Source: a virus
Lineage: Duplodnaviria; Heunggongvirae; Uroviricota; Caudoviricetes
Length of the DNA stretch: 64,000 bases
Direction: 5' to 3' (one strand)
Virus record (IMG/VR): IMGVR_UViG_2724679073_000003
The notes under the pieces are model-generated. The model saw only the letters and a list, made by a program, of their open reading frames with translations. It was not told the DNA's origin and did not search any database. The translations under genes were made by a program, and so were the position numbers. How positions within the stretch are numbered: position 1 is the first letter of the stretch; each line of letters begins with the position of its first letter. Below, piece after piece: positions 20,839-21,816 of this stretch.

Positions 20839-20913
20839 GATGGTGTAGCTCAGCGGTAGAGCAGTTGGCTGTTAACCAACTGGTCGGTGGTTCGAATCCA
20901 CCCACCATCGCCA
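20839..20913 (+). tRNA. tRNA-Asn (anticodon GTT)
   Basis: Hand-folded cloverleaf: acceptor GATGGTG/CACCATC, anticodon loop CTGTTAA, T-arm GGTGGTTCGAATCCACC, encoded CCA. Confidence 0.85.
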
Positions 20914-20918
20914 CTTTA

Positions 20919-21005
20919 GGGGAGTTAGTCCGTAGGGGTAGCGGGGTAGACTGTAAATCTACTGTCATTGCGACTCGGGTGGTTCGACTCCATCACTCCC
21001 CACCA
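20919..21005 (+). tRNA. Type-II tRNA, Tyr-like (anticodon GTA), divergent D-arm
   Basis: Acceptor GGGGAGT/ACTCCCC, anticodon arm GTAGA-CTGTAAA-TCTAC, long variable arm, T-arm GGTGG-TTCGACT-CCATC, CCA; anticodon region resembles E. coli tRNA-Tyr. Confidence 0.5.
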
Positions 21006-21009
21006 AATT

Positions 21010-21085
21010 GCCGGTTTAGCTCAGTTGGTAGAGCGCCTGCCTTGTAAGCAGGATGTCAGCGGTTCGAGTCCGTTAACCGGCACCA
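21010..21085 (+). tRNA. tRNA-Thr (anticodon TGT)
   Basis: Acceptor GCCGGTT/AACCGGC, anticodon arm CCTGC-CTTGTAA-GCAGG, T-arm with GGTTCGAGTCC, CCA. Confidence 0.85.
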
Positions 21086-21093
21086 ACACAACA

Positions 21094-21167
21094 GGTAAGG
21101 GTATTTTGCGACGTCGGAGATCGCCGTGCTTGGCAGAGGGTTCGAATCCCTACGAAGTACCCTTACC
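21094..21167 (+). ncRNA. tRNA-like element: 10-bp terminal stem plus canonical T-arm (not a canonical cloverleaf)
   Basis: GGTAAGGGTA ... AGGGTTCGAATCCCT ... TACCCTTACC; 9 nt separate T-arm from 3' stem. Confidence 0.3.
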
Positions 21168-21318
21168 GTTGTGATGAAGTGCAGCTCTTTGAAGCAACCA
21201 GAAGATAAGCATCTGGCTTCACAACATAAACCGCAGGAACGACCAATAAACGGTAGTCCGTATGGAGAACACCCCGTTGAGGAAGAGGCCTGGCCGGAAC
21301 CGTAACCGGCACTACAAC

Positions 21319-21400
21319 GTTGAGAACACTGGCGTAACGGGGTCATATCCCAATCTACGAATAAATGTTGCGTTGCAGCGTGACAACCAGTGTTCTCAAC
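21319..21400 (+). repeat. Long hairpin with conserved loop motif TAACGGGGTCATATCCCAATCTAC (copy 1)
   Basis: 14-bp stem GTTGAGAACACTGG / CCAGTGTTCTCAAC; 3' flank TTGTGGTGAATGC shared with copy 2. Confidence 0.4.
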
Positions 21401-21600
21401 ATTGTGGTGAATGCACAGGCTGATGTGCCGCAACTACAGTAGTGCGCGCTTTGCGGGGCTTGCTACAACCCTGTGTCGGAGTTCAGCACCGACCATCACA
21501 GTTTGATTCTCTGGCATGAGCATAACGCTGAAATAAGTCCAGTCTGGTGCGGCCCGATCACCCGCCGTTAGCTCCACGAAACGGAGCACGTAACAGGTAA

Positions 21601-21656
21601 GAGCATTCTCCTGTAACGGGTTCATATCCCAATCTACAGGTCCACCAGGAATGCTC
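21601..21656 (+). repeat. Hairpin with conserved loop motif TAACGGGTTCATATCCCAATCTAC (copy 2)
   Basis: Stem GAGCATTCTCCTG / CAGGAATGCTC; preceded by ACAGGTAAG motif also found at 20562 and 21092. Confidence 0.4.
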
Positions 21657-21816
21657 TTTCCGTTGCGGTGAATGCGGCTAAGCGCACGCGGAACAGTTAA
21701 AACAATCCTCCTTAATGGTTAAACATTCCGGCGTTAATTGTTAACTGGTTAACGTCACCGGGAGGCACTCGGCACCGCAATCTAATAAATATGTCACTTT
21801 TATTGAGGGATAACCA

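What the first reader, a model, noticed from the sequence alone, without database searches (positions are those of the whole stretch)
20839..21700. tRNA cluster with an extra Tyr-like type-II tRNA and repeated tRNA-like hairpin elements
Besides clean Asn(GTT) and Thr(TGT) tRNAs there is a third, long-variable-arm gene with GTA anticodon and a divergent D-arm. Downstream are (a) a tRNA-like element with a perfect T-arm and a 10-bp terminal stem, and (b) two long hairpins each carrying the ~24-nt motif TAACGGG(G/T)TCATATCCCAATCTAC in the loop with a shared 3' flank TTG(C/T)GGTGAATGC. The motif ACAGGTAAG(G/A)G recurs three times. No protein-coding ORF explains this 700-bp tract. Candidates are degenerated tRNAs, small regulatory RNAs, or tRNA-mimic decoys.
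Basis: seen in the sequence. Interest (0 to 1): 0.55.

Follow-up and report, generated by a model that had tools for sequence, protein, structure and literature searches.

The report
P1 tRNA and structured-RNA cassette array
A stretch of a P1-like phage that has been annotated since 2004 as two small proteins looks instead like a string of transfer-RNA genes and conserved folded RNA modules, probably copied as one transcript when the phage is induced; other phages carry the same modules, but what they do is unknown.

Summary
The window is a P1-like phage-plasmid. Region 20839-21700 lies in the untranslated leader of the C1-repressed ban operon.

- **tRNAs.** Asn(GTT) and Thr(TGT) are clean. 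The GTA gene is a plausible type-II tRNA-Tyr (Rfam 41.9 bits) whose D-stem is displaced by 2 nt. It is an accessory cassette: reference P1 lacks it, and 22 of the sampled related loci carry it.
- **ORFs.** The P1 ORFs plp and upl, on the opposite strand, show no coding signature and are broken in relatives.
- **H modules.** The two hairpins with the 24-nt motif are three-way-junction RNAs. A model built only from Yersinia/lambdoid-prophage copies finds both at E about 1e-8. 94.6% of cells are paired and 25 of 33 pairs covary. There is no Rfam match.
- **G modules.** The shared 3' flank is the start of a multi-stem element equal to the core of the prophage sRNA STnc100. The same element fills the dicF-dicB spacer of E. 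coli K-12.
- **ACAGGTAAGRG** is the 5' strand of a reused hairpin base.
- **E1** carries only a T-loop on a roughly 20-bp stem.

Most likely this is a processed array of non-coding RNAs. The function of the modules is unproven.

The parts
20140..20190 (+). Context: P1ban/P2ban promoters and the C1 operator (ATTGCTCTAATAAATTT at 20156) that control the whole tract
   Evidence: 51 of 51 bases identical to the annotated P1 features
20343..20372 (+). Context: intrinsic-terminator-like hairpin plus T-run inside the stretch that P1 annotates as the 'dicF-like region'
   Evidence: coordinates mapped; no Rfam DicF hit
20559..20635 (+). H0: long hairpin with the ACAGGUAAGGG...CCUUUCCUGU base (first copy of the recurring 11-mer)
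   Evidence: z = -5.5. Relatives show compensatory changes (CACAAC/GUUGCG to CAUAAC/GUUACG) and keep an internal mismatch
20839..20913 (+). tRNA-Asn(GTT)
   Evidence: ARAGORN and Rfam, 75.5 bits
20919..21005 (+). tRNA-Tyr(GTA): type II, encoded CCA, A73, D-stem displaced by 2 nt; an accessory cassette
   Evidence: Absent from reference P1, annotated in Ro157c2YLVW, found in 22 sampled loci with 5 variants. N4-like phages carry tRNA-Ser(TGA) in the same slot
21010..21085 (+). tRNA-Thr(TGT)
   Evidence: 74.9 bits
21088..21172 (+). E1: about 20-bp stem (ACAGGUAAGGG base) capped by a small three-hairpin domain that includes the canonical T-loop GGG-UUCGAAU-CCC
   Evidence: (z = -4.9). The T-loop is kept in 70 of 71 related copies. 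No tRNA or YrlA hit. Similarity to tRNAs covers the T-loop only
21168..21236 (+). S1: small stem-closed element (GUUGUGAUGAAG...CUUCACAAC) with a CCAGA-AGAUAAGCA-UCUGG hairpin; 95% identical copies in Klebsiella phage-plasmids
   Evidence: Membership of the G family is not significant (R2 9.5 bits, E = 1.9)
21292..21310 (+). Hairpin GGCCGGAACCGUAACCGGC, which precedes H elements here and in Yersinia-type prophages
21314..21405 (+). HpA: H-family three-way junction. Base stem about 19 bp; arm 1 carries ACGGGGUCAUAUCCCAAUC; arm 2 has loop UUGCAG
   Evidence: R1 42.1 bits, E = 1e-8; z = -6.8; covariation
21401..21501 (+). G element A3a: closing helix UGUGGUG/CAUCACA, hairpin GCACA-GGCUGA-UGUGC, variable middle, hairpin GUCGG-AGUUCAGCA-CCGAC
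   Evidence: R2 57.4 bits, E = 1.4e-12; the model was built without this type
21502..21589 (+). A3b spacer module with two small hairpins. It occupies the slot where P7, D6 and others carry tRNA-Ser(TGA); an 84% identical copy follows tRNA-Gly in a Klebsiella phage late leader
21590..21666 (+). HpB: H-family member without arm 2, built on the ACAGGUAAGAG base
   Evidence: R1 42.1 bits, E = 1e-8; z = -5.8
21662..21780 (+). G element B3, STnc100-core-like; it ends 36 nt before the tciA start codon
   Evidence: Rfam STnc100 43.0 bits (gathering score 47), E = 2.4e-7, model positions 31-147. R2 29.8 bits, E = 1.4e-5. 75-86% identical copies in lambdoid phages
21817..22251 (+). Context: tciA (TerB family), the first protein gene after the array
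22526..22601 (+). Context: tRNA with CAT anticodon (annotated tRNA-Ile2 in P1), further down the same operon before ban

Best explanation
The tract is a non-coding part of the leader of the C1-repressed ban operon, about 1.65 kb in all. It reads on the + strand as an array of self-folding cassettes.

1. Three tRNA genes. The middle one is an optional tRNA-Tyr.
2. 'H' hairpins. Each has a 17-25 bp base helix with a swappable apical part. Two copies carry the invariant ACGGGKUCAUAUCCCAAUC arm, and one (E1) carries a T-loop.
3. 'G' multi-stem elements. Each has the closing helix UGYGGUG/CAYCRCA, a first hairpin, a variable middle and a last hairpin. This is the core fold of the prophage sRNA family STnc100/PasD.

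H and G alternate and share the 5-6 nt junction words CACAAC and GUUGUG. Each cassette is therefore closed by its own helix, and cassettes can be exchanged by recombination.

Inferred mechanism: once C1 is inactivated, one long transcript is made. RNase P and RNase E release the tRNAs. The long H helices, and G closing helices where they are extended, are cut by RNase III or protect RNA ends. The stem-closed H and G pieces then persist as stable small RNAs, or as a 5' cap structure on the tciA-ban mRNA. Their conserved loops contact a partner that is still unknown, either a protein or an RNA.

The tRNA-Tyr supplements host tRNA-Tyr, either for translation or against tRNA-Tyr-cleaving defences.

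Shown here: position, strand, absence of coding signal, conserved structure, homology and cassette mosaicism. Inferred: co-transcription through the terminator-like site at 20343-20372, the processing enzymes, RNA stability, and any trans function.
For: - **Operon context.** The C1 operator and P1ban promoter are identical to P1's, and all tRNAs, tciABC and ban lie on the + strand.
- **No coding signal.** plp has 99 distinct SNPs spread 30/34/35 over codon positions, a synonymous fraction of 0.28 against 0.235 for random change, 2 stop-creating SNPs and 38 indel sites. Stops, frameshifts or insertions break it in L003, L006, L002/L004/L012, SJ46 and P7, and its 3' end is antisense to trnT. upl has SNPs at 4/11/11. 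Neither ORF has a Pfam domain, and PGAP does not call plp or upl in the four RefSeq relatives inspected.
- **H family.** Model R1 was built from 14 non-P1 copies only. It hits just HpA and HpB in the 64-kb window, both at 42.1 bits, E = 1e-8, full length. On 39 distinct forward-strand sequences 94.6% of cells are paired, against 31-45% in the slid controls. 25 of 33 pairs change on both sides, and the covariation score is 0.472 against 0.113 at most.
- **Strand.** The + strand scores 98-116 bits and the - strand 20-32 bits. Several pairs are mostly G-U.
- **G family.** Model R2 was built without the window's types. It finds A3a (E = 1.4e-12) and B3 (E = 1.4e-5) and nothing else significant. 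B3 also matches Rfam STnc100 at E = 2.4e-7. Compensatory changes are visible in the closing helix and the last hairpin.
- **The same modules sit in other transcribed leaders.** H-G lies between Q and holin (L068) and between a DNA methylase and holin in PY54. G lies between dicF and dicB in mEp460 and in E. coli K-12 Qin. The order A3b-H-G follows tRNA-Gly, before holin, in a Klebsiella phage.
- **Cassette mosaic among relatives**.
- **Literature.** PasD/STnc100 are abundant Hfq-bound sRNAs next to Q and holin (bioRxiv 10.64898/2026.05.13.724894). STnc100 lies 75 nt downstream of stx2 (PMC12370729).
Against: - No expression or processing data were available. Transcription has to pass a terminator-like hairpin at 20343-20372.
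- G elements and spacer pieces do not fold better than shuffled sequence (z = -0.4 to -2.5).
- B3 scores below Rfam's gathering score (43 against 47), covers only model positions 31-147, and has no terminator of its own.
- Covariation in H comes from about four sequence classes, so there are few independent events. It was also counted on an alignment fitted to the model.
- The motif arm is dispensable in at least one relative: L003 lacks 13 nt of it. SJ46 fuses HpA with HpB and loses A3a and A3b.
- Nothing identifies the partner of the conserved loops.
- The exact motif has a narrow distribution. Among the species-representative genomes only a Yersinia genome and a P1-like Escherichia contig carry it (the third match looked like chance).
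Confidence: 0.6

Rival explanations
1. The tract encodes the small proteins Plp (a putative lipoprotein, 125 aa) and Upl (63 aa) on the minus strand, as annotated in P1. On this reading the hairpins are incidental.
For: - Both ORFs are open in the window and in reference P1.
- Upl matches PHROG families of unknown function.
- upl has no indels among 70 copies.
Against: - plp starts with TTG and ends inside trnT, on the antisense strand.
- plp is interrupted in at least 5 lineages, while the RNA modules stay intact in those lineages that keep them.
- SNPs are spread evenly over codon positions, and the synonymous fraction is close to random.
- Neither has a Pfam domain, and PGAP does not call them in the four RefSeq relatives inspected.
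- upl disappears wherever the tRNA-Ser cassette replaces A3b and HpB.
- The + strand structure covaries across phage families that lack these ORFs.
Confidence: 0.04
2. The modules are cis-acting only. They serve as RNase III, RNase P or RNase E processing sites and as 5' or 3' protective structures that separate the tRNAs from the tciA-ban mRNA and set its stability or translation. They have no trans-acting product.
For: - The helices are long and nearly perfect: about 20 bp in E1 and 19 bp in HpA.
- E1 starts 2 nt after the CCA of tRNA-Thr.
- G elements sit directly before start codons, at tciA here and at dicB in mEp460 and K-12.
- In mEp460 the G closing helix extends to about 23 bp right after dicF. 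From my own recollection of Faubladier et al. 1990 (not checked), RNase III processing of the dicB operon transcript has been reported.
Against: - Invariant loop sequences of 19 nt, with stems that covary around them, are more than a processing site needs.
- A3a is not followed by any ORF.
- Relatives in the STnc100/PasD family accumulate as Hfq-bound sRNAs (bioRxiv 10.64898/2026.05.13.724894).
Confidence: 0.25
3. The elements are tRNA-derived. They are either decaying tRNA pseudogenes left by cassette turnover, or tRNA mimics that act as decoys for enzymes or defence nucleases that recognise tRNA.
For: - They are embedded in a tRNA cluster whose content turns over.
- E1 carries an exact T-loop 13-mer, GGGTTCGAATCCC, on a 7-bp acceptor-like helix, and the T-loop is kept in 70 of 71 copies.
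- The motif arm GGG-UUCAUAU-CCC looks like a T-arm.
- An H-type hairpin in phage phiNP holds two hairpins with the T-loop consensus.
- Phage tRNAs are known counter-defences (PMC11555353, PMC11464382).
Against: - No tRNA, tmRNA or YrlA model matches E1, H or G.
- Similarity of E1 to tRNAs stops at the T-loop.
- The Klebsiella homologue of E1 has lost the T-loop.
- The motif loop has U where the essential A58 would be.
- H-G units occur in prophages with no tRNA nearby.
- Covariation argues against decay.
Confidence: 0.08
4. The inverted repeats act at the DNA level. They could be recombination junctions for cassette exchange, or single-stranded-DNA hairpins such as priming or replication signals upstream of the ban helicase gene.
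For: - Cassette boundaries coincide with the short words CACAAC and GUUGUG.
- SJ46 shows recombination across the 24-nt motif.
Against: - Scores are strongly strand-asymmetric, and G-U pairs would be A-C mismatches on the other strand.
- Conserved loops with covarying stems, and homologues in the late leader between Q and holin and in the dicF-dicB spacer, point to transcripts.
- Recombination at the junctions explains the mosaic, but not why the structure is conserved.
Confidence: 0.03

Closest known systems
STnc100 (Rfam RF02076) / PasD prophage sRNAs
   Same: - The core fold is the same: a 7-bp closing helix UGGUG/CACCA, a first hairpin, a variable middle, and a last hairpin CCGGG-AGGCA-CCCGG.
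- The location is the same: untranslated leaders of lytic operons in temperate enterobacterial phages (bioRxiv 10.64898/2026.05.13.724894; PMC12370729).
   Different: - B3 scores 43.0 bits, below the gathering score of 47, and covers only model positions 31-147. It has no terminator of its own.
- A3a is not detected by the Rfam model at all. Only my broader model R2 finds it.
- Here the element is paired with an H hairpin and embedded among tRNAs. No expression or Hfq data exist for these copies.
Stable RNAs co-transcribed with the phage T4 tRNA cluster (species 1 and 2, rnaC/rnaD) - recalled from memory, not checked
   Same: Non-tRNA structured RNAs lie in the same precursor as phage tRNAs and are released by the tRNA-processing machinery. 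Their function is unknown.
   Different: No sequence or structural homology was tested. T4 is virulent, whereas here the array sits under a prophage repressor.
dicB operon of the Qin/Rac-type prophages (dicF sRNA and its processing)
   Same: A G element fills the dicF-dicB spacer in E. coli K-12 and in mEp460. The P1 leader also starts with a stretch annotated as 'dicF-like', which ends in a terminator-like hairpin.
   Different: The window has no Rfam DicF hit. The role of the spacer element in Qin is itself uncharacterised as far as I could find.
RNase III processing hairpins between phage T7 early genes - general knowledge
   Same: Repeated hairpins sharing sequence punctuate a polycistronic phage transcript. 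The helix length is compatible with RNase III.
   Different: Cleavage was not tested. H elements carry conserved multi-arm apical domains that T7 sites lack.
GOLLD and ROOL large phage-associated RNAs - general knowledge
   Same: Ornate structured RNAs of unknown function in phages and prophages, often next to tRNA genes.
   Different: No Rfam hit to either. The modules here are small (75-120 nt), modular and shuffled, and do not form one large conserved RNA.

Membership tests
tRNA (RF00005), for the GTA gene at 20919-21005 | Covariance-model score at or above the gathering score; cloverleaf with a 7-bp acceptor stem; 7-nt anticodon loop with U33; T-loop | tested here: met
   41.9 bits against 29. 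ARAGORN calls Tyr(GTA). The minimum-energy fold is a cloverleaf with anticodon loop CUGUAAA and T-loop UUCGACU.
tRNA (RF00005), for the GTA gene at 20919-21005 | Canonical D-arm geometry: 2 nt between the acceptor stem and the D-stem | tested here: not met
   A 2-nt insertion ('gu') follows position 9, and the 4-bp D-stem is shifted. The score is about 33 bits below the neighbouring tRNAs.
Bacterial tRNA-Tyr identity | G34-U35-A36 anticodon, long variable arm, A73, G1-C72 (features recalled from general knowledge); charging by TyrRS | not testable with these tools
Aminoacylation could not be tested, and tRNAscan-SE was not available.
STnc100 (RF02076), for B3 at 21662-21780 | Score at or above the gathering score (47 bits) over the whole model | tested here: not met
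   43.0 bits, E = 2.4e-7, model positions 31-147 of 206. Variants in relatives score 34-43 bits.
STnc100 (RF02076), for B3 and A3a | Core architecture: closing helix, first hairpin, variable middle, last hairpin next to the closing helix | tested here: met
   Rfam alignment. Independent model R2 scores A3a at 57.4 bits and B3 at 29.8 bits. Compensatory changes are visible.
STnc100 / PasD | A discrete, Hfq-associated sRNA with its own intrinsic terminator | tested here: not met
   No terminator-like site follows A3a or B3. Expression and Hfq binding cannot be tested here.
H-motif RNA (a family defined here, not in Rfam) | Base stem of at least 17 bp; arm 1 holding ACGGGNUCAUAWCCCAAUC; optional arm 2; significant match to model R1 | tested here: met
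   HpA and HpB each score 42.1 bits, E = 1e-8, over the full model. Covariation is reported. There are four stem classes, including phiNP. No Rfam family matches.
tRNA pseudogene or tRNA-like element, for E1 | Detectable homology to a tRNA beyond the T-loop, or a match to the tRNA, tmRNA or YrlA models | tested here: not met
   No hit at E <= 10. YrlA hits fall only on the real tRNAs. The best alignment to 321 tRNA predictions covers 11-14 nt of the T-loop.
Protein-coding genes plp and upl | ORF conserved among relatives; excess of synonymous or third-position change; known domain | tested here: not met
RNase III substrate | About two helical turns of nearly perfect duplex; cleavage in vivo or in vitro | not testable with these tools
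   Helix length is met by E1, HpA, H0 and the extended G helix of mEp460. Cleavage was not tested.

The most novel reading that the evidence does not exclude
H and G modules form a previously unrecognised system of swappable RNA cassettes. Each is a stem-closed scaffold carrying an exchangeable payload or a conserved ligand-binding loop. P1-like phage-plasmids, lambdoid prophages and N15/PY54-type prophages would trade these cassettes at the short CACAAC/GUUGUG junctions and express them only during lytic growth. The H motif RNA, with its invariant 19-nt arm, would be a new functional RNA class that binds a specific host or phage factor, for example a tRNA-handling enzyme or a defence nuclease.
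Probability: 0.2. Interest if true: 0.75.

Novelty: new variant of a known kind. Interest (0 to 1): 0.5.

Why it matters
- **Annotation.** P1 is a reference genome, and P1-like phage-plasmids are common carriers of resistance genes. If the reading is right, two P1 'genes' (plp and upl) should be removed from annotation. The ban-operon leader would become a model for how temperate phages package tRNAs and small RNAs in one repressor-controlled transcript.
- **A new link between elements.** The H motif appears to be an undescribed structured RNA. The G element ties together P1, the dicF-dicB spacer of E. coli K-12 and the STnc100/PasD sRNAs of pathogenic E. coli. This suggests a shared and still unexplained function in lytic-operon leaders.
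- **A testable counter-defence idea.** The variable tRNA slots (Asn or Arg; Tyr or empty; Ser or A3b-HpB) give a natural test bed for the idea that phage tRNAs are counter-defence cargo.

Tried and rejected
1. **Y-RNA-like (YrlA) reading of E1.** Rfam gives no hit on E1. Weak YrlA hits fall only on the real tRNAs.
2. **The hairpin at 20559-20635 as P1's 'dicF-like region'.** Wrong. That feature maps to 20280-20381, and no DicF model hit exists in the window.
3. **An 'acceptor + T-arm + CCA minihelix' in Klebsiella phage L016 as a second E1-like element.** Wrong. It is the 3' half of a genuine tRNA-Gly(TCC).
4. **Covariation counted on alignment A4.** Discarded, because it included reverse-strand hits of the same hairpins, which inflate two-sided changes. 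It was redone on forward hits only.
5. **MAFFT alignment of H classes A and C.** Not structurally coherent, so a model-guided alignment was used instead.
6. **Variation within P1-like copies alone.** Too little variation for covariation analysis.
7. **Hammerhead or other ribozyme reading of the CUGAUG loop in G.** No Rfam support, and the motif lacks the conserved A.
8. **Literature searches.** Searches for the motif sequence, and for P1 papers naming tciA alongside RNA-seq, found nothing relevant. The 2004 P1 genome paper is not held.
9. **A 43-aa + strand ORF (21174-21305) that PGAP calls in some plasmids.** Its ATG lies in the conserved GUGAUGAAG word and is mutated to AGG in several copies. 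The ORF runs into tRNA-Ser in Klebsiella.
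Full report
**What the window is.** The window carries C4 and isrK RNAs, a sok RNA, a dmt methyltransferase ending at 20165, tciA at 21817 and a DnaB-like ban gene from 22882. Region 20400-21820 matches phage P1 and its relatives at 92-98% identity, and one E. coli plasmid matches 21086-21816 at 100%. In the P1 record, the C1-controlled P1ban/P2ban promoters lie just after dmt. They are followed by a 'dicF-like region', trnA(Asn), trnT(Thr), the minus-strand ORFs plp and upl, then tciABC, trnI and ban. 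The operator-promoter stretch is identical in the window, 51 of 51 bases at 20140-20190. The finding therefore lies in the untranslated leader of the ban operon, which is about 1.65 kb long.

**Check of the observation.** ARAGORN and Rfam confirm Asn(GTT) at 20839-20913, Tyr(GTA) at 20919-21005 and Thr(TGT) at 21010-21085.
- ACAGGTAAGRG occurs exactly three times; 0.07 are expected.
- The 24-nt motif occurs twice; none is expected.
- TTGYGGTGAATGC occurs twice exactly.
- The hairpins fold far better than shuffled sequence: E1 z = -4.9, HpA z = -6.8, HpB z = -5.8, and the hairpin at 20553-20640 z = -5.5.

Two details need correcting. E1's closing stem is about 20 bp, not 10. Its T-arm is an alternative conformer, 1.1 kcal/mol above the minimum and about 25% of the ensemble.

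**The Tyr gene.**
- It scores 41.9 bits against the Rfam tRNA model (gathering score 29) and folds as a cloverleaf.
- It has anticodon loop CUGUAAA, a long variable arm, T-loop UUCGACU, A73 and an encoded CCA.
- Two extra bases follow position 9 and shift the D-stem.
The match is best in the anticodon arm and at the start of the variable arm.
- Reference P1 lacks it. Phage Ro157c2YLVW annotates it as tRNA-Tyr. It occurs in 22 of the related loci I collected, in five sequence variants.
- N4-like phages have the same Asn-X-Thr block at 77% identity, with tRNA-Ser(TGA) in the middle slot.
- The cluster is a set of slots with alternative contents: Asn or Arg(TCT); Tyr or empty; Thr; Ser(TGA) or non-tRNA modules; then CAT.
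- Published work shows that phage tRNA-Tyr can overcome Retron-Eco7 and Septu, which destroy host tRNA-Tyr (PMC11555353, PMC13096335). That gives a plausible counter-defence role, which was not tested here.

**Coding test.** They do not behave as genes.
- plp starts with TTG and ends inside trnT, on the antisense strand.
- plp is cut by a stop codon in L003, by frameshifts and a stop in L006, by an insertion of about 180 nt in RCS47, L002 and L004, by a deletion in SJ46, and by module replacement in P7.
- Over 95 copies plp has 99 distinct SNPs spread 30/34/35 across codon positions. The synonymous fraction is 0.28 against 0.235 for random change. There are 2 stop-creating SNPs and 38 indel sites.
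- upl has 26 SNPs distributed 4/11/11.
- Neither ORF has a Pfam domain. NCBI's pipeline does not call them in the four RefSeq relatives I inspected.
- A 43-aa + strand ORF that is sometimes called loses its ATG in several copies.

**The motif hairpins are a structured-RNA family (H).** A scan of viral contigs for the motif core returned many P1-like loci. It also returned a third context: prophages, and Yersinia phage PY54, in which a sequence-unrelated long stem encloses the same 19 nt, ACGGGUUCAUAUCCCAAUC. All classes fold as a three-way junction:
- a base stem of 17-19 bp;
- arm 1, a 4-7 bp stem around the invariant motif with an inner GGG/CCC hairpin;
- arm 2, with loop UUGCAG. HpB lacks arm 2.

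I built covariance model R1 from 14 non-P1 copies only. In the 64-kb window it finds exactly HpA (21314-21405) and HpB (21590-21666), each at 42.1 bits, E about 1e-8, over the full model.

On 39 distinct forward-strand sequences 94.6% of cells form pairs, against 31-45% when partners are slid. 25 of 33 pairs change on both sides, and the covariation score is 0.472 against 0.113 at most. A first count that included reverse-strand hits was discarded.

The + strand scores 98-116 bits and the - strand 20-32 bits. Several pairs are predominantly G-U. Both observations point to an RNA read from the + strand. A fourth class in Citrobacter phage phiNP keeps ACGGGCUCAUAACCCAAUC inside a CCGGG/CCCGG arm. 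Rfam has no match.

Two caveats apply. The alignment is fitted to the model. The covariation comes from about four classes, so independent events are few.

**The '3' flank' is the start of a second family (G).** Rfam's STnc100 matches 21664-21779 at 43.0 bits (gathering score 47), E = 2.4e-7, over model positions 31-147. Allelic variants in relatives score 34-43 bits.

The architecture is a closing helix UGYGGUG/CAYCRCA, then AAU, then a first hairpin (GCACA-GGCUGA-UGUGC), a variable middle, and a last hairpin (GUCGG-AGUUCAGCA-CCGAC) that abuts the closing helix. Model R2 was built from seven G elements of other types: the RCS47-type insert, P7, two IMG/VR types, PY54 and two prophage types. 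In the window it finds only:
- A3a at 21401-21501 (57.4 bits, E = 1.4e-12);
- B3 at 21662-21780 (29.8 bits, E = 1.4e-5);
- S1, not significantly (9.5 bits, E = 1.9).

Compensatory changes can be read directly from the sequences:
- closing helix: UGUGGUG/CACCACA, UGCGGUG/CACCGCA and UGUGAUG/CAUCACA;
- last hairpin: GUCGG/CCGAC, GCCGG/CCGGC, CCUGG/CCAGG and CCAGA/UCUGG.

**The recurring 11-mer.** ACAGGUAAGRG is the 5' strand of a hairpin base. Its partner CYCUUWCC(U)GU lies 55-66 nt downstream in all three copies. The same base carries at least five different apical inserts among relatives. Variants of the 20559 hairpin show compensatory changes and keep an internal mismatch.

**The array.** H and G alternate. 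H bases begin with CACAAC or ACAAC and end with GUUGU. That same GUUGUG opens the next G, which closes with CAYCACAAC. The reading order in the window is: Thr, E1(H), S1, spacer, HpA(H), A3a(G), A3b, HpB(H), B3(G), tciA.

Relatives differ by whole cassettes:
- an extra G plus H between E1 and S1 (RCS47);
- E1 replaced (P7, Ro157c2YLVW);
- A3a (or its second half), A3b and HpB replaced by a stretch that carries tRNA-Ser (P7, D6, L006, L007);
- HpA fused with HpB across the 24-nt motif (SJ46).

**Where else the modules occur.**
- The H-G unit lies between the Q antiterminator and holin in a lambdoid prophage (L068), and between a DNA methylase and holin in PY54. It is flanked by intrinsic terminators.
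- B3-like G elements, 75-86% identical, occur in many lambdoid phages.
- In mEp460 and in E. coli K-12 Qin a G element fills the dicF-dicB spacer. In mEp460 its closing helix extends to about 23 bp.
- In a Klebsiella phage the late leader reads tRNA-Gly, A3b-like, H (ACAGGUUAGAG base), G, holin.
- STnc100 lies just downstream of stx2 (PMC12370729).
- Its relative PasD is an abundant, Northern-validated, Hfq-bound sRNA next to Q and holin (bioRxiv 10.64898/2026.05.13.724894).

The common denominator is the untranslated leader of a lytic operon. Proximity to tRNAs is not the common factor.

**E1.** It has no tRNA, tmRNA or YrlA match. Its similarity to 321 tRNA predictions from the collected loci stops at the T-loop. 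The T-loop is kept in 70 of 71 P1-type copies but lost in the Klebsiella homologue. E1 is best described as one more H-type hairpin whose apical payload includes a T-loop. Whether that T-loop is used cannot be told.

**How it most likely works.** The following is shown:
- the tract is non-coding;
- it lies on the sense strand of a repressor-controlled operon;
- it consists of conserved self-closing RNA folds that are homologous to elements in other phage leaders and to a known sRNA family.

The following is inferred. One transcript is made after C1 inactivation, and it must read through the terminator-like site at 20343-20372. The tRNAs are excised by the host machinery. The long helices serve as RNase III sites or as end protection. 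The H and G pieces persist as small RNAs, or as a 5' cap structure on the tciA-ban mRNA. Their invariant loops bind an unknown partner. I put 0.6 on this package: about 0.85 on 'structured non-coding RNA array', and less than half on the processing and stability details.

The main rival is a purely cis-acting processing and stability role (0.25). tRNA remnants or decoys (0.08), real plp/upl proteins (0.04) and a DNA-level role (0.03) are less likely.

**Novelty.**
- The tRNA-Tyr is already annotated in one relative.
- STnc100 is a known family, but its presence in P1, the pairing with H, and the identity of the dicF-dicB spacer do not appear in the papers I could search.
- The H motif has no Rfam family and no literature hit.
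- I rate the whole as a new variant of a known kind: phage arrays of tRNAs and small RNAs.

Noticed in passing
window 20280-20381 (terminator-like hairpin at 20343-20372, + strand): The stretch that P1 annotates as 'dicF-like' ends in an intrinsic-terminator-like hairpin plus T-run about 180 nt after P1ban. This suggests a short promoter-proximal RNA and a read-through step before the tRNAs. The Rfam DicF model does not match it.
   Followed up: partly
window 21056-21625, minus strand: The P1 genes plp and upl look like annotation artefacts. There is no codon-position bias, relatives carry stops, frameshifts and indels, and plp ends antisense inside trnT.
   Followed up: yes
L007 952-1028 (E. 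coli plasmid pMUB-MIN14-1): A tRNA-Arg(TCT) occupies the Asn slot. It has the same acceptor stem and T-arm as the Asn gene, a near-identical D-arm, and a different anticodon arm, as if the identity had been switched by swapping that arm. It occurs in 14 sampled loci.
   Followed up: partly
L006 1121-1196 (Salmonella plasmid pSa1423-160k): The 'tRNA-His(GTG)' call is the Thr gene with 2 extra bases in the anticodon loop (CCTTGTGTAAGC). Its Rfam score drops to 39 bits, so it is probably a damaged or recoded Thr gene.
   Followed up: partly
L009 2240-2326 (P7), L010 2254-2340 (D6), L007, L008: The accessory tRNA-Ser(TGA) of P7, D6 and relatives scores best against the selenocysteine-tRNA model (43-46.6 bits, just under its gathering score of 47). 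The D6 record notes that tRNAscan-SE could not assign it. The D6 record also annotates its tRNAs on the wrong strand.
   Followed up: no
L011 2308-2404 (Salmonella phage SJ46); L003 2827-2904: SJ46 carries a fusion of HpA and HpB joined inside the 24-nt motif, which deletes A3a and A3b. Ro157c2YLVW has an HpB that lacks 13 nt of the motif. Both look like natural deletion mutants of the H elements.
   Followed up: yes
L141 655-781 (E. coli K-12 MG1655, Qin prophage): The unannotated spacer between dicF and dicB is a G/STnc100-like element (R2 23.7 bits; Rfam STnc100 34.4 bits). In phage mEp460 the equivalent element has a closing helix of about 23 bp directly after dicF.
   Followed up: partly
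L015 about 2085-2235 (Citrobacter phage phiNP): An H-type hairpin (CACAACGAUGAGAGC...GCUCUCUUCGUUGUG) encloses two hairpins with T-loop consensus loops (UUCGAUU and UUCAAUU), yet neither ARAGORN nor Rfam calls a tRNA there. Significance was not tested.
   Followed up: no
window 20695-20709: ACGGGTATATCCCGT, upstream of tRNA-Asn, resembles the core of the H motif (ACGGGKTCATATCCC) as a small hairpin. Model R1 does not detect it.
   Followed up: no
window 20361-20466: A weak match to the permuted-tmRNA model (23.2 bits; gathering score 47; E = 0.05) recurs at the homologous site in relatives. It is probably chance.
   Followed up: no
window 3498-3672; 49832-50021: A sok antitoxin RNA (94.7 bits) lies at 3498-3672. 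An isrK RNA (60.8 bits) and a C4 antisense RNA (75.9 bits) lie next to each other at 49832-50021. All are expected P1-type features and confirm what the window is.
   Followed up: no
window 22526-22601: ARAGORN reports the CAT-anticodon tRNA as Met. The P1 record annotates it as tRNA-Ile2 (89% identical to ileX), so the amino-acid assignment depends on lysidine modification.
   Followed up: no
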